From: the human T2T-CHM13v2.0 reference genome, Homo sapiens
Reading direction: 5' to 3' (one strand)
Assembly (NCBI RefSeq): GCF_009914755.1
Contig: NC_060940.1
Length of the DNA: 64,000 nucleotides
The notes under the pieces were generated by a model. It worked only from the letters and a program-made list of their open reading frames with translations, ran no database searches and was not told the origin of the DNA. A program made the position numbers and the translations under genes. Shown one piece after another: positions 50,401-54,455 of this stretch. How positions within the stretch are numbered: the first letter of the stretch is position 1; every line of letters begins with the position of its first letter.

Positions 50401-52300
50401 AGTAGCTGGGATTACAGGTGTGTGCCACCATGCCTGGCTAATTTTTTTGTATTTTTAGTAGAGACAGGGTTTCACCATGTTGGCCAGGCTGATCTCGACC
50501 TCCTGACCTCAGGTGATCCACCCACTTCGGCCTCCCAAAATGCTGGGATTACAGGCATGAGCCACTGCACCCAGCCTCTAGATTGCTTTGGATAGTAATG
50601 TCATATTAACAAAATTAAGTGTTCCAATCTATGAACACAAAAGGTATTTCCATTTATTTAGGTCTTCTTTAACTTCTTTCAGCCATGTTTTACAGTTTTC
50701 AGTGTACTTGCCTTTCTTGCACTTCCTTGATTAAATTTATTTCTAAATATTTTCTCTTTTGTGATACTAATGTAAATGGAATTTATTTTTGTAATTTCAT
50801 TTTTGGATTGTTCATTGCTAGTGTAAAGAAATACAACTCCCATTTGTATATTTATCTTATATCCTGACATTTTCCTAGGCTCATTTATTAGCTCTAATAG
50901 CTTTTTGTGGATTCTTTAATGTTTTCTATATATAAGTTTATGTGATCTGCCAAGAGGCAATAGTTTTATGTCTTTCTTTCAGTCTCGATGACTTTTTTTT
51001 TCTGGCTAATTTCCCTGGCTACAACTTCCAGTAGAATGTTGAATAAAGTGGCAAGAGCAGACATCCTTGTCTTGTTCCTGATCTTTGTGGGGGAAGCTTT
51101 CAGTTTCACCATTAGGTGTGATGCTATCTGTGTTTTTTTCATAGATGCCTTTCATCATGCTGAGGAAGTTCCTTTCCATTCCTAGTTTGCTGAGTGTTTT
51201 TATCATGAAAGTGTGTTGGATTTTGTCAAATGCTTTTCTGTGTCTACTGAGATTGTCATGTGATTTTGGCCCTTCTTTCTGTTAATATGCTATATTACTG
51301 CAGTGCAGTTTGACTCTAACAATGGGCTGGGTGTGGTGGCTCGTGCATGTAATCCCTGCTCTTAGGGAGACAGAGGCGGGAGGATAGCTCGAGCCCAGGA
51401 GTTCAAGGCTTGCCTGGGCAATATAGCGAGACCCCATTCTCCAAAGAAAAAAGGAGAAAAAAAAGACCAAAAAAAAAAAGTGTGACTTTAACAATAGAGT
51501 TAGCATAGGCTTCACACATTAGAGGTATAGTCCCCCACAAGATTGCCCCCACTTTGGAACCCACAAGCTTGGAGGTTCCCAAACAAACAAAGCACTTCTG
51601 ACAAACTGGCTGCAACTGTGGAAGTCCCACTATTCTCTCAGGTTTGTTAATTCACTAGAACAACTGACAGAACTCAGGAAAGTACTATACTTATGATTAT
51701 AGTTCTATTCTAGAGGATACAATTCAGGACAGGCCAACAAAATAGCTGCATGGGTGGGGTCTGGGAGAGTCCCAAATGCAAAGCTTCTGTGTCCTCAGGA
51801 CGTAGCACCCTCCCAGCATATTGGTGTCTATTGGGTTAGCTCACCTAAGCTTTGAGTATCCAGTTTTTATTGGGGTTTTATTACACAAGCATGAATGATT
51901 GAAGCATTGGCCACATCATTGAACTCCATCTCCAGCGTTCTTTCCACAACCCAGGAAACTCGGAGGCAGGGTGACATCACATAGCTCAAAGCCCCAGCCT
52001 TCTAATCACATGGCTGGTCTTTCTAGTGTGACCATCCCACATCCTGAGTCACCTCCTTAGCATAAACTCAGGTATGATGATGGCAGGGTGGAGATCCACT
52101 ATGAGGAACAAAGATACTCCTATTACTCCAGAAATTTTAAGCATTTACAGGCTTCTTTCCAGGAACCAGGGACAAGGGCCAGCCAGTTCTTTATTATAAA
52201 AACTGAAACCCTGGTTTTTCATGTGCTCAGCCTCCCTTGCATTCCTGAGATAAATCCCACTTGGTTGTGATGAATAACCCTTTAACATGCTGCTGTATTT
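47478..52300 (-). mobile_element. Antisense L1MB-like element with nested Alus (47575-48169, 48886-49543, 50275-50575) and a second MER21-like LTR (~51297-52205)
   Basis: ttttattgagacaaaattcacataac marks the L1 3' end; antisense ORF2 continues to ~52300. Confidence 0.8.
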
Positions 52301-52488
52301 ACTTTTTAACATCGTAAGTTTATTTACATGGTTCAAATGCAAAAGCCTTTGTCCATCCCTTTCCCTGAAGGTAATGAGTTTCTGGTGTAAGTTTTTATGT
52401 ATATGTATACACACAACAAAATGTTCGCTGGTCAGGGTCGGCCTCCCGCCAGGAGCCCTGCATCTCCCTGCGTCCCCTGTCGTTGCAG

Positions 52489-52641
52489 CTGAAGGGCCTG
52501 TCACGTCAGAAGTGCCCTGAAGTCAAGCAGGTGCTGCACATCATAGGCCTGGAGGACAAGTGGAACTCACGGAGCCGCTTCCTGAGCGGGGGCATGAGCC
52601 GCAAGCTCTCCATCGGCATCGCCCTCATCGCAGGCTCCAAG
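52489..52641 (+). pseudogene. ABCA17P: NBD1 signature-motif exon ([51 protein letters not shown]), ABCA3-like
   Basis: 153 bp, tgcag/gtgcgg; LSGGM signature; 44 of 51 codons end in G/C. Confidence 0.93.
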
Positions 52642-52687
52642 GTGCGGCGGTGGGACTGGAGGCAGTGGGTTCCCCTCCTGCTCGACC

Positions 52688-54455
52688 TGGGACTACAGGC
52701 GCCCGCCACCACTCCTGGCTAATTTTTTGTATTTTTAGTAGAGATGGGATTTCACCGTGTTAGCCAGGATGGTCTCGATCTGCTGACCTTGTGATCTGCC
52801 TGCCTCGGTCTCCCATAGTGCTGGGATTACAGGTGTGAGCCACCGCGCCTGGCCTACTTTCTATTTCTTTTTTTAAAAAAAAAAAGGCTGGGCGCAGTGG
52901 CTCATGCCTGTAATCCTAGCACTTTGGGAAGCCGAAGCGAGTGGATCACCTGAGGTCAAGAGTTCGAGACCAACCTGGCCAACATGGGGAAACCTCGTCT
53001 CTACTAAAAATACAAAAATTAGCCGGGCATGGTGGCAGGCATCTGTAATCCCAGCTACTTGGGAGGCTGAGGCAGAAGAATCGCTTGAACTCAGGAGGTG
53101 GAGGTTGCAGTGAGCCGAGATCATGCCATGGCACTCCAGCCTGGGCTTCAGAGAGAGACCCTGTCTGAAAAAAAAATTAAAAAATAAAAAATAAAAAAAT
53201 AAAAATTATTGGGTAATATTTTATACCTGTAAATATATGTTTCATATATGTAATTATGAAGTGTAAATAACAGAATGAGCACTAGTGAACCCTCTATGCA
53301 ACCTAAGAACTAAGACATAGCGATAACTTTTTACCCTAACCATACTCAACCCCACAACATCAGTTACGTAGTTAACCATTTCTTTCTTCTTGAAACACTC
53401 TTCTCTCTTGGCTTCCTTGGCAAAATTTACTCCTTGGGGGTTTTACTCCTACCTGTCTGGCCACTCCCAAGTGGCAGTGGGAAAGAATGGGAGACAAGCA
53501 GTGTTGAGAGAGGTGGTTATGAAAAGGTCAGTTAAGAATTCTTTACATTTGAAAGGCCCCTGAGCCACCCTAGTGGAGACATCAAGAAGGCAGTTGGATG
53601 TGAATGAAGCTGGGCATTGAGGAGAGGGTCAGCCTGGAAATGCATGGGAGTCATCTGCTTGTAGAAGTATTTAAAGTTGTGGGAAGGGATACGGTCAGGT
53701 AGGAAGAAAACATAGAGAAAGAAACAAAGGAGCTTACAAACAGTTCCTGAAGCGCTCCTAAAATTCGAGGTTCCACAGAGAGGGACCTTGCAAAGAGGCC
53801 TGGAGAAAAGAAGCCTCTTAAAGATGAATGGAGAATAAGCACAAATATGTAAAATTGGAATTGAGAATTGGGGGAAAAAACCCATAGATACCAAAAAATT
53901 AGAAGACAATATTTTGTACAGTTTTAAACTAATATATTAGAAAACCTGAATATAATGGTAGACTGTCCAGAAAAATAATTTTATTAAAATTGACTCAATA
54001 AATACCAAAAAGTTTTTATAAACCTGATCACTTTTATCAAATATTTAAAGAAAATATAATTTTGATTTTATTCAAAGTCTTCCAGAGAACATTAAAAAAA
54101 TACAGGCTGGCAGTAGTGGCCCATGCTTATAATCCCAGTACCTTGTGGGGCTGAAGCAGGAGGATCACTTGAGCCCTGGAGTTTGAGAACAGCTTGGGCA
54201 AGACAGGAAGACCTGTCTCAACAGAAAAAAAGAAAGAAAGAGAGAGAAGGAAAGGAAGGAAGGAAGGAAGAAAGAAAGAAAAGAAAGAGCCAGGCTTGGT
54301 GGTGCACATCTGTAGTCCCAGCTACTCGGGAGGCTAAGGCAGAAAGAACGCTTGAGCCTGGGAAGTCAAGGCCACAGTGAGCCGTGATCATGCCACAGTA
54401 CTCCAGCCTGGGCAAAAGAGTGAGACCCTGTCTCAAAAACAAACAAACAAACAAA
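52688..54455. mobile_element. Truncated antisense Alu 52688-52855, sense Alu 52886-53205, sense Alu 54105-54455 with purine-expanded middle
   Basis: Alu consensus; the first begins abruptly mid-element. Confidence 0.88.

What the first reader, a model, noticed from the sequence alone, without database searches (positions are those of the whole stretch)
52300..52700. Pseudogene exon that looks like a recent copy of ABCA3 (gene conversion or templated patch between head-to-head paralogs)
Seen: exon 52489-52641 has 44/51 G/C-ending codons and 8 CpGs, versus 15/42 G/C-ending codons in exon 32057-32184. Its flanks (~52425-52690) are also GC-rich and sit between an abruptly ending L1 and an Alu that starts mid-element. 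Recalled: the ABCA3 peptide is [52 protein letters not shown], only 3 differences away (one E deleted, M>V, R>S), whereas the other exons resemble mouse Abca17. Inference: ABCA3 sequence overwrote or was patched into the syntenic slot of ABCA17P recently. The two copies form an inverted pair, so reverse conversion could carry pseudogene alleles into the surfactant-disease gene, and short reads could mis-map. This may already be noted in the ABCA17P literature.
Basis: partly seen in the sequence, partly recalled or inferred. Interest (0 to 1): 0.85.

Follow-up and report, generated by a model that had tools for sequence, protein, structure and literature searches.

The report
ABCA3 exon copied into ABCA17P pseudogene
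A 268-base piece of the lung-surfactant gene ABCA3 (one exon plus bits of both introns) was pasted fairly recently into the matching slot of its neighbouring dead paralog ABCA17P, an ordinary kind of event whose exon-level similarity was already published in 2006.

Summary
Window 52425-52692 (ABCA17P exon 8 plus 64 and 51 intronic bases) matches ABCA3 exon 16 and its intron edges (chr16:2320163-2320433, opposite strand). It differs by 5 substitutions and one 3-base deletion in 271 columns. The other exon pairs are 56-76% identical. Third-codon positions (96% identical), the intron flanks and the ABCA3-like base composition rule out retained ancestral similarity. The right edge fuses ABCA3 intron 16 to a truncated antisense Alu through a shared CTGGGA. 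The left edge cuts into a unit of an 80-base tandem array found only in ABCA3 intron 15. So ABCA3 was the donor, ABCA17P the recipient, and the event happened in primates.

Outside the window there is a second, mosaic tract: a 240-base core at 2.1% divergence inside about 900 bases at 12.8%. A probable older tract sits at exon 13.

Piehler et al. 2006 already reported the 98% and 97% exon identities and warned about PCR cross-amplification. They read the identities as a trace of duplication and found GENECONV not significant. The conversion reading therefore refines the record, but the phenomenon is ordinary. A cross-species exon tree could not be built, and no evidence of reverse transfer into ABCA3 was found.

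The parts
52425..52488 (+). 64 bases copied from the 3' end of ABCA3 intron 15, including the splice acceptor used by ABCA17P exon 8. The leftmost 44 bases are part of one unit of ABCA3's 80-base intronic tandem array.
   Evidence: 63 of 64 bases are identical to chr16:2320370-2320433(-); the one mismatch is at 52432. The array has period 80 and 4.0 copies at chr16:2320390-2320710. The three further ABCA3 units match 52425-52468 at 93-95%.
52489..52641 (+). ABCA17P exon 8 (RefSeq NR_003574.1), a copy of ABCA3 exon 16. It encodes the ABC signature-motif region of nucleotide-binding domain 1.
   Evidence: 150 of 153 bases are identical, plus one 3-base deletion relative to the 156-base ABCA3 exon. 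Third-codon identity is 96% and GC3 is 44/51. The best solved-structure match is human ABCA3 (7w01, 7w02), chain residues 654-705, E 8e-28.
52642..52692 (+). 51 bases copied from the 5' end of ABCA3 intron 16, including the splice donor.
   Evidence: 50 of 51 bases are identical. The one mismatch, at 52645, is a CpG/TpG difference at intron position +4.
52687..52692 (+). Right junction. The six bases CTGGGA are shared by ABCA3 intron 16 and the Alu, so the exact switch point is ambiguous (microhomology).
   Evidence: Read from the alignments. ABCA3 similarity ends after 52692, and Alu similarity begins at 52687.
52687..52854 (-). Antisense Alu that lacks the roughly 135 bases of its own 3' part (right arm and poly-A). 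This is the scar of the event on the recipient side.
   Evidence: Three full-length copies on chr1, chrX and chr22 extend upstream through the right arm to the poly-T. The window has ABCA3-derived sequence there instead. The stretch 52683-53214 is masked as repeat.
52307..52424 (.). Left flank. It is AT-rich sequence unique in the genome (the 500 bases 51925-52424 have GC 0.42), of unknown origin. The left junction lies at 52424/52425.
   Evidence: The genome search matched this part of the query only to itself. It shows no similarity to ABCA3 intron 15 or to extended L1 copies.
52216..52306 (+). Old L1-like fragment, 77-92% identical to many copies. It ends about 118 bases before the tract, so it is not at the junction.

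Best explanation
ABCA17P exon 8 and its immediate intron edges (window 52425-52692) are a non-allelic (interlocus) gene-conversion or templated-repair tract. It was copied from ABCA3 exon 16, which lies about 88 kb away in inverted orientation on the same chromosome. The likely sequence of events is inferred. A break arose in or near the ancestral ABCA17(P) exon 8. The broken end used the paralogous ABCA3 exon as its template, and synthesis ran past the exon into ABCA3 introns 15 and 16. Because the introns of the two genes share no homology, the new strand was rejoined to ABCA17P without homology. On the right it joined through a 6-base microhomology inside an Alu, deleting that Alu's 3' part and whatever lay between. 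The ancestral exon was overwritten. The copied ABCA3 splice sites now serve ABCA17P exon 8 in the non-coding transcript. Substitution divergence is 1.9%, which puts the event very roughly at 9 Myr ago (about 3-22 Myr from the Poisson interval at an assumed 1e-9 per site per year per lineage). That is long after the ABCA3/ABCA17 duplication. It is also after ABCA17 had died if, as Piehler 2006 reports, chimpanzee and rhesus copies are disabled too. It is one of several such transfers in this gene pair. What is shown: the identity, the tract edges, the Alu truncation, the composition, and the absence of a second exon-16-like relic. What is inferred: the break-repair pathway, the date, and the order relative to pseudogenisation.
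For: (1) The genome search found 97% identity of window 52425-52692 to chr16:2320163-2320433(-). This was the only non-Alu match apart from three more ABCA3 intron-15 repeat units.
(2) Exon identity is 98.0%, against 56-76% for the 12 pairs outside the tracts. Third-codon identity is 96%, against 38-73%.
(3) Intron flanks are 63/64 and 50/51 identical. In the flank test, 8 of 28 flanks beat all 100 shuffles. Six of these are strong and all lie at tract exons (exon 8 both sides, exon 15 both sides, exon 16 upstream, exon 13 downstream). Two are weak: exon 4 upstream and exon 14 upstream.
(4) Direction. The ABCA17P side carries a truncated Alu at the junction. The ABCA3 side has no masked repeat within chr16:2319000-2322000. 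The tract's left end lies inside a unit of an 80-base x 4.0 array that continues only in ABCA3. GC3 is 0.86 in the tract exon, against 0.29-0.69 in ABCA17P exons outside the tracts and 0.82 for ABCA3 overall.
(5) tblastn with every ABCA3 coding-exon peptide found no other exon-16-like relic in ABCA17P, so the slot was overwritten and not added to.
(6) The tract is collinear and in the same orientation, between the exon-15-like and exon-19-like exons.
(7) Column-permutation segment test: the exon 8 segment scores 130 against a maximum of 51 in 2000 permutations.
(8) Further tracts in the same pair show that transfer is recurrent here.
(9) The cDNA-based 98.0% of Piehler 2006, Table 2, shows the identity is not an artefact of this assembly.
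Against: No ortholog could be brought in, so the classical proof is missing: the exon grouping with ABCA3 and not with Abca17 in a tree, and presence or absence of the tract across primates. Direction rests on junction anatomy and composition, not on an outgroup. Piehler et al. 2006 state that GENECONV on exons 6-9 and 13-16 was not significant. I believe, from recalled knowledge of the method and untested here, that a two-sequence GENECONV run has no power. The left junction gives no mechanistic clue because the ancestral ABCA17P sequence there is unknown. The date rests on 5 substitutions and an assumed rate, in CpG-rich DNA that mutates faster than average. Column permutation ignores real site-to-site differences in constraint, so its P-value alone would overstate the case.
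Confidence: 0.9

Rival explanations
1. The similarity is left over from the original ABCA3/ABCA17 duplication and was kept by strong purifying selection on the ABC signature motif. This is in effect how Piehler 2006 used the high exon identities, as support for an origin by duplication.
For: The exon encodes the most conserved motif of the nucleotide-binding domain; it also matches ABCA7, ABCA1, ABCA4 and MacB. Piehler 2006 reports GENECONV as not significant.
Against: Selection on a protein cannot hold synonymous sites at 96% or introns at 113/115, least of all in a pseudogene. The neighbouring exon 7 and exon 9 pairs, also from the nucleotide-binding region, are 75-76% identical. The tract abuts a primate-specific Alu that it truncates, so it postdates a duplication that Piehler 2006 places before the boreoeutherian radiation.
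Confidence: 0.01
2. The transfer ran the other way: ABCA17P sequence overwrote ABCA3 exon 16.
For: With only two sequences and no outgroup, identity alone says nothing about direction.
Against: The junction scars (a truncated Alu and a break in context) are on the ABCA17P side, while in ABCA3 the tract continues seamlessly into its own intron and its 80-base array. Composition (GC3 0.86, 8 CpGs) fits ABCA3 (0.82 overall) and not the other ABCA17P exons (0.29-0.69; 0-4 CpGs in the pairs tabulated). ABCA3 is an intact, disease-relevant gene, and its exon 16 peptide equals that of the solved human structure.
Confidence: 0.03
3. A homology-independent event, such as a templated insertion or small duplicative transposition of an ABCA3 fragment into a break inside an Alu, that only by chance landed in the right intron and orientation. 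The ancestral exon 8 would have been lost separately.
For: Both tract ends lie in sequence with no ABCA3/ABCA17 homology. The right end uses only 6 bases of microhomology. Many other ABCA17 exons have vanished from the pseudogene: tblastn found no convincing relics for ABCA3 exons 11-14, 17, 18, 20, 24 or 26-28.
Against: The fragment sits collinear and co-oriented between the exon-15-like and exon-19-like exons, a slot of about 16 kb in a 3.1 Gb genome. The same gene pair shows other tracts whose ends coincide with exon edges, as homology-anchored gap repair predicts. The two pictures also shade into each other, for example homology-primed invasion followed by an end-joining finish.
Confidence: 0.05
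4. An assembly or collapse artefact of the T2T reference placed ABCA3 sequence in ABCA17P.
For: None found.
Against: The two copies differ at 6 events. RefSeq transcript NR_003574.1 contains the exon. Piehler 2006 obtained 98.0% from their own cDNA and an earlier assembly.
Confidence: 0.01

Closest known systems
ABCA17P/ABCA3 'discrete regions of high homology' (Piehler et al. 2006, BMC Mol Biol 7:28, PMC1579226; passages and Table 2 read)
   Same: It is the same locus and the same exons. The paper gives exon 8/exon 16 98.0%, exon 15/exon 31 97.4%, exon 16/exon 32 90.5% and intron 14/exon 30 88.9%. These agree with my 98.0, 97.4, 91.9 and 88.8%. The paper also warns of accidental amplification of ABCA17P in ABCA3 mutation analysis.
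   Different: The paper uses the identities as evidence of an origin by duplication. It considers conversion only in the pseudogene-to-gene direction and reports GENECONV as not significant. The passages I read do not mention the intronic extension of exon 8's identity, the tract edges, the Alu junction, the mosaic ages or the donor direction. I did not read the whole text or see the figures.
Gene/pseudogene conversion pairs of medical genetics: ABCC6 with ABCC6P1/P2 (cited in Piehler 2006); CYP21A2/CYP21A1P, GBA1/GBAP1 and SBDS/SBDSP (recalled)
   Same: Each pair is a functional gene with a nearby unprocessed pseudogene that exchange short tracts by non-allelic conversion. Diagnostic cross-amplification or mis-mapping is a concern in all of them.
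   Different: In those pairs the paralogs are young and more than 95% identical over kilobases, and pseudogene-to-gene transfer is documented as a cause of disease. Here the paralogs are ancient (about 70% exon identity, unalignable introns). The high-identity islands are only 240-270 bases long. The demonstrated flow is gene to pseudogene, and no reverse transfer is documented.
Double-strand-break repair by synthesis-dependent strand annealing finished by microhomology-mediated end joining (established repair pathways; recalled)
   Same: A templated copy from an ectopic homolog has one end joined through a few bases of microhomology and an accompanying deletion at the recipient.
   Different: The pathway is inferred from the junction anatomy alone and nothing here tests it. 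The left junction is uninformative.

Membership tests
Interlocus (non-allelic) gene-conversion tract | A discrete segment is far more similar between the paralogs than the rest of the genes. | tested here: met
   98.0% against 56-76% for the other exon pairs. The segment score is 130 against a permutation maximum of 51 in 2000 permutations.
Interlocus (non-allelic) gene-conversion tract | The excess similarity also holds at sites free of protein-level selection (synonymous sites and introns). | tested here: met
   Third-codon identity is 96%. Intron flanks are 63/64 and 50/51 identical. Flank scores of 61.5 and 48.5 compare with shuffle maxima of 12.0 and 12.5.
Interlocus (non-allelic) gene-conversion tract | The tract lies in the homologous (collinear, co-oriented) position and replaces the resident sequence instead of adding to it. 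| tested here: met
   It lies between the exon-15-like and exon-19-like exons. No second exon-16-like relic exists in ABCA17P.
Interlocus (non-allelic) gene-conversion tract | Phylogenetic incongruence: the converted segment groups with the paralog of the same species and not with its orthologs. | not testable with these tools
   No mammalian genomes are on hand. The protein word search is limited to 0.55-1.75 times the query length, and a spliced full-length query may not be typed. A PDB chain id was not accepted by get_proteins.
Interlocus (non-allelic) gene-conversion tract | Both tract ends lie within sequence homologous between donor and recipient (classical heteroduplex or gap repair). 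| tested here: not met
   Tract 1 runs into introns that are otherwise unalignable, and it ends in an Alu with 6 bases of microhomology. The older tract 2, by contrast, starts within about 2 bases of the exon 30 start and ends about 5 bases past the exon 32 end. Tract 1 is therefore best called a conversion-like templated repair with a non-homologous finish.
Processed (retro-copied) patch | The copied segment lacks introns and follows mRNA structure. | tested here: not met
   The tract carries 64 and 51 bases of ABCA3 intron on its two sides. Tract 2 contains both introns 30 and 31.
Alu-Alu recombination product | An Alu is present at the breakpoint in both partners. | tested here: not met
   No masked repeat lies in chr16:2319000-2322000 on the ABCA3 side. 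The ABCA3 sequence beyond the junction is not Alu.
Segmental duplication | At least 1 kb at 90% identity or more (conventional definition, recalled). | tested here: not met
   Tract 1 is 268 bases. Tract 2 is 897 bases at 87% by blastn.
ABC transporter nucleotide-binding domain, signature-motif exon (ABCA3 exon 16) | The encoded peptide aligns to the NBD1 signature region of ABCA3. | tested here: met
   phmmer against PDB matched 7w01_A and 7w02_A (human ABCA3), chain residues 654-705, E 8.4e-28. The next best hit is ABCA7 at 5.5e-6. The Pfam scan was not completed: one search failed on a co-submitted exon that contained stops.

The most novel reading that the evidence does not exclude
The inverted ABCA3/ABCA17P pair is a long-lived and possibly still active conversion hot-spot. 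It carries at least three or four transfers of stepped age: about 19% divergence at exon 13, about 13% across exons 30-32, and two at about 2% (exon 16 and exon 31). The youngest tract was finished by end joining inside an Alu. If exchange is still going on in human populations, the islands of 240-270 bases at about 98% identity could occasionally carry pseudogene alleles back into ABCA3. These alleles include changes of the p.Glu644del, p.Met648Val and p.Arg670Ser type in the NBD1 signature region, and a frameshifting 1-base deletion in the exon 31 copy. Such alleles would be a hidden class of surfactant-disease variants. Conversely, such calls could be mis-mapping artefacts.
Probability: 0.1. 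Interest if true: 0.6.

Novelty: new member of a known kind. Interest (0 to 1): 0.3.

Why it matters
For genome biology this is a clean, small textbook case. An ancient paralog pair with about 70% exon identity still exchanges sequence, and one tract carries a readable repair scar (an Alu truncated at a 6-base microhomology) that fixes donor, recipient and an upper age. It also corrects the published reading of the 98% exons as a trace of the original duplication, and the published statement that conversion tests were not significant.

For diagnostics it restates a known caution. ABCA3 exons 16 and 31 each have a near-identical copy in a transcribed pseudogene. Short amplicons, capture baits, cDNA assays and reads shorter than about 100 bases can therefore pick up ABCA17P. 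The specific pseudogene-type changes listed here are the ones to distrust, or to look for as true conversions, in ABCA3 reports. No evidence was found that reverse transfer has happened.

Tried and rejected
Retained ancestral similarity was rejected on third-codon and intron identity.

The reverse direction was rejected on junction anatomy, the ABCA3-only 80-base array and composition.

Alu-Alu recombination was rejected because the ABCA3 side has no repeat there.

A retro-copied patch was rejected because introns are included.

The L1-like similarity stops near 52306, not at 52424, so it cannot be tied to the event.

A recombination-hotspot lead was tried with the 13-base motif CCNCCNTNNCCNC, recalled as the PRDM9 motif. 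The window has 11 matches but none between 31166 and 59130, so none lies near the tract. The lead was dropped.

Literature. I ran five answered searches. ABCA17P+ABCA3 gave 14 papers. ABCA3+pseudogene+'gene conversion' gave 3. ABCA17P+conversion gave 5. Two searches looked for ABCA3 with the pseudogene-type variant names. One returned no paper. The other returned no ABCA3 paper, its one hit being an SMC3 case. One search used word-start matching and would have missed 'p.'-prefixed forms; one search repeated it with match 'anywhere'. Only main texts of the open library are searched, and supplements are closed. ABCA3 cohort variant tables, which I could not see, may hold these variants.

What I saw of each paper:
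- PMC1579226: passages and Table 2.
- PMC2329642: passages. Its two gene-conversion mentions were in cited-reference titles (Bischof 2006; McCormack 1993), not in a statement about ABCA17P.
- PMC2864566: passages listing Abca17 among human unitary pseudogenes.
- PMC4581316: passages naming ABCA17P only.
- bioRxiv 10.1101/2023.05.28.542624: reference-list mention only.
- PMC13005587 and the remaining listed papers: search listing only.

The cross-species exon tree was not possible. No mammalian genomes are available here.

In one search four exon pairs (3/6, 4/7, 10/20, 11/21) gave degenerate alignments because end gaps were free. They were redone with penalised ends, and only the values are used for them.

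
Full report
**What is there.** The window is chr16:2356001-2420000 of T2T-CHM13. The finding concerns exon 8 of the transcribed pseudogene ABCA17P (window 52489-52641, + strand). I searched the whole reference with window 52250-52750. Apart from the self-match and many matches to the Alu at the 3' end of the query, the only hits were in ABCA3. 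Query bases 176-443 (window 52425-52692) matched chr16:2320163-2320433 on the opposite strand at 97% identity. Three further short matches of 52425-52468 lay a little deeper in the same ABCA3 intron. By the RefSeq table, chr16:2320214-2320369 is ABCA3 exon 16, the 16th of 33 exons and 156 bases long.

A pairwise alignment, counted, gives 271 columns. There are 5 substitutions: window 52432, 52531, 52545, 52599 and 52645. There is one 3-base deletion in ABCA17P after 52518. The tract is made of 64 bases of ABCA3 intron 15 (63/64 identical), the exon (150/153 identical plus the deletion) and 51 bases of intron 16 (50/51 identical). Outside 52425-52692 the two loci do not align.

All of them were reproduced.
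- Exon 8 has 44 of 51 G/C-ending codons and 8 CpGs. Exon 32057-32184 in frame 2 has 15 of 42.
- The ABCA3 exon 16 peptide (residues 633-684), translated from the annotated coding exons, is the one recalled. The pseudogene copy lacks one of Glu643/644 and has Met648Val and Arg670Ser, plus a silent change at Ile652.
- phmmer against PDB places the peptide on human ABCA3 (7w01, 7w02), chain residues 654-705, E 8e-28. The next hit is ABCA7 at 5.5e-6.
- GC is 0.70 and 0.71 in the two copied intron edges, against 0.42 in the 500 bases upstream.
- The only imprecise detail is the L1. L1-like similarity (77-92% to many copies) covers about 52216-52306 and then stops. The stretch 52307-52424 is unique in the genome. 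So the L1 end is not the tract's edge.

**Is it more than conservation?** Yes.
- With blastn, 12 of the 17 ABCA17P exons hit their collinear ABCA3 exon. Nine of these are 71.6-83.9% identical over the aligned part. Exons 8, 15 and 16 reach 96.2, 96.9 and 91.9%.
- Whole-exon global alignments give 56-76% for the 12 pairs outside the tracts and 98.0% for exon 8. Four pairs that aligned degenerately were redone.
- Third-codon positions are 96% identical in exon 8, against 38-73% elsewhere.
- I compared 150 bases of intron on each side of 14 exon pairs with 100 shuffles each. Eight of 28 flanks beat every shuffle. Six are strong: exon 8 on both sides (61.5 and 48.5 against shuffle maxima of 12.0 and 12.5), exon 15 on both sides, exon 16 upstream, and exon 13 downstream. 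Two are marginal: exon 4 upstream (14.0 against 12.0) and exon 14 upstream (14.5 against 12.0).
- I ran a maximal-segment test on 2528 concatenated exon columns (69.7% identity overall). The exon 15-16 segment scores 207 and the exon 8 segment 130, against a maximum of 51 in 2000 column permutations. A third segment in exon 13 (score 39) was reached by 8 of 2000. Column permutation ignores variation in constraint, so I lean on the synonymous and intronic evidence and not on that P-value.

**Donor and recipient.** Three observations point from ABCA3 to ABCA17P.
- First, the right edge. After the shared CTGGGA (52687-52692) the window continues as an antisense Alu, whereas ABCA3 continues as its own intron 16. 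Three full Alu copies from chr1, chrX and chr22 carry about 135 more bases upstream of that point (right arm and poly-T). In the window that space is occupied by ABCA3-derived sequence. The missing part includes the Alu's poly-A end, so it was lost after insertion. The scar is therefore in ABCA17P. The ABCA3 side has no masked repeat in chr16:2319000-2322000.
- Second, the left 44 bases of the tract are part of one unit of an 80-base, 4.0-copy, 95%-matching tandem array at chr16:2320390-2320710 in ABCA3 intron 15. ABCA17P holds only that proximal piece, cut off mid-unit.
- Third, composition. GC3 is 0.86 with 8 CpGs. ABCA3 overall has GC3 0.82. ABCA17P exons outside the tracts have GC3 0.29-0.69, and 0-4 CpGs in the pairs tabulated.

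tblastn with the peptide of every ABCA3 coding exon found no second exon-16-like sequence anywhere in ABCA17P. The ancestral exon was therefore overwritten. The copied acceptor and donor sites are the ones the RefSeq transcript uses.

**Mechanism (inferred).** The tract sits in the collinear slot and in gene orientation, between the exon-15-like exon 7 and the exon-19-like exon 9. This argues that homology with the resident exon guided the event. But the copy runs beyond the exon into introns that share nothing with ABCA17P, and at least the right end was sealed through six bases of microhomology with loss of recipient sequence. I therefore read it as ectopic, intrachromosomal repair of a break. 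The inverted paralog about 88 kb away served as template, as in synthesis-dependent copying, and the repair was finished by microhomology-mediated joining. The left junction (52424/52425) is uninformative because the pre-event sequence is unknown. The 13-base motif recalled as the PRDM9 hotspot motif is absent between 31166 and 59130.

**Age.** Substitution divergence is 5/268 = 1.87% (Poisson 95% interval 0.61-4.35%). At an assumed 1e-9 per site per year per lineage, this is about 9 Myr, with a range of roughly 3-22 Myr from the count alone. CpG-rich DNA evolves faster, so the true age may be lower. The Alu junction independently limits the event to primates (Alu being primate-specific is recalled knowledge). 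Piehler 2006 places the duplication before the boreoeutherian radiation and reports disabling changes in chimpanzee and rhesus ABCA17 too. The transfer therefore probably hit a gene that was already dead.

**The wider pattern (outside the window).** A locus-wide blastn of ABCA17P against ABCA3 and a MAFFT alignment show a second tract. chr16:2446575-2447471 matches ABCA3 2300038-2300905. It covers an unspliced exon-30-like piece in ABCA17P intron 14, both short introns, exon 15 (= ABCA3 exon 31) and the first 74 bases of exon 16 (= ABCA3 exon 32). There are 85 substitutions in 867 ungapped columns. These are not evenly spread. A 240-base core (2446991-2447230) has 5 substitutions (2.1%), while the rest has 80 in 627 (12.8%). 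Fisher's test gives P = 1.7e-7, and 0 of 300 permutations reach the observed likelihood. The older tract begins within about 2 bases of the exon 30 start and ends about 5 bases after the exon 32 end. That is what homology-anchored gap repair between exon islands would give.

A probable still older tract covers the 3' part of exon 13 and 113 bases of the following intron (chr16:2433111-2433350). It is 18.8% divergent, against 39% for the 5' part of the exon (Fisher P = 4e-4). The finding is thus one of at least three, and probably four, transfers of stepped age. The two youngest (1.9% and 2.1%) are indistinguishable in age.

**What is already known.** Piehler et al. 2006 (PMC1579226; passages and Table 2 read) list exon 8/16 at 98.0%, exon 15/31 at 97.4%, exon 16/32 at 90.5% and intron 14/exon 30 at 88.9%. 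They conclude that the homologies and the neighbourhood 'strongly suggest' an origin by duplication. They discuss ABCA17P as a possible 'repository' of mutations for ABCA3 and find that the then-known ABCA3 mutation sites are wild-type in ABCA17P. They state that GENECONV on exons 6-9 and 13-16 was not significant. They also warn of accidental amplification and transcript cross-detection. So the observation and the practical warning are in print.

Transfer from ABCA3 into ABCA17P, the intronic extent, the junctions and the mosaic ages are not in the passages I read. Nor are they in any other paper returned by the searches ABCA17P+ABCA3 (14 papers), ABCA3+pseudogene+'gene conversion' (3 papers) or ABCA17P+conversion (5 papers). 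My explanation for the negative GENECONV result is that the method has no power with only two sequences. That rests on recalled knowledge of the method and was not tested.

**Reverse flow and mis-mapping.** No paper in the searchable library names ABCA3 together with Met648Val, Arg670Ser, Glu644del, c.1942A or c.2010G. Supplements are closed and may hold variant tables. Windows lying fully inside the tract differ between the two copies by 0-3 edit events at 75 bases, 1-4 at 100 bases and 3-5 at 150 bases. The longest exact run is 86 bases. Modern paired reads should therefore usually be placed correctly. Short reads, short amplicons, capture baits and cDNA assays can confuse the copies. Reverse conversion is mechanistically possible but unsupported.

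**Verdict.** The decisive cross-species tree is still missing. The phenomenon is an ordinary gene-to-pseudogene conversion, with an unusually legible junction, at a locus where the exon-level similarity has been published since 2006.

Noticed in passing
outside the window: chr16:2446575-2447471 (ABCA17P intron 14 to exon 16; loci L017 and /scratch region): A second ABCA3-derived tract covering ABCA3 exons 30-32 with both introns. It is mosaic: a 240-base core (2446991-2447230; 5/240 = 2.1% divergent, plus a 1-base deletion in the exon 31 copy) lies inside an older tract (80/627 = 12.8%). The ends of the older tract coincide with exon edges.
   Followed up: yes
outside the window: chr16:2433111-2433350 (ABCA17P exon 13 3' part plus intron 13; L016): A probable older transfer, or a conserved intronic element. 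It is 18.8% divergent from ABCA3 exon 23 and 113 bases of intron 23, against 39% for the 5' part of the same exon. The intron flank scores 41 against a shuffle maximum of 11.
   Followed up: partly
outside the window: chr16:2320390-2320710 (ABCA3 intron 15; L011 4390-4710): A tandem array with an 80-base period, 4.0 copies and 95% matches. It starts 20 bases from the exon 16 acceptor. It may vary in copy number between people; this was not examined.
   Followed up: partly
window 27925-28158, window 41723-41833, and chr16:2434690-2434827: Unannotated relics of ABCA17 exons found by tblastn with ABCA3 exon peptides: exon-5-like (35% identity, E 3e-8), exon-10-like (65%, E 2e-13) and exon-25-like (43%, E 1e-11). 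No convincing relics were found for ABCA3 exons 11-14, 17, 18, 20, 24 or 26-28.
   Followed up: no
window 52888-53214: A second Alu, in sense orientation, follows the truncated antisense Alu after a short T/A-rich spacer. Together they form the masked block 52683-53214.
   Followed up: no
window, whole: The 13-base motif CCNCCNTNNCCNC occurs 11 times, against 1.33 expected from shuffles. Six of the 11 are the string CCACCTTGGCCTC (20477, 26762, 59130, 62812, 63813 and others), and two more differ from it at one base. This looks like Alu content and not a hotspot signal; the Alu attribution was not checked.
   Followed up: no
ABCA3 coding exons 7 and 19 (chr16:2345908-2346073, 2314588-2314686): These two exons have an unusually low GC3 for ABCA3 (0.47 and 0.64, against 0.82 overall). 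Their identity to the ABCA17P counterparts is ordinary (63.8% and 75.8%), so there is no sign of pseudogene-to-gene transfer.
   Followed up: partly
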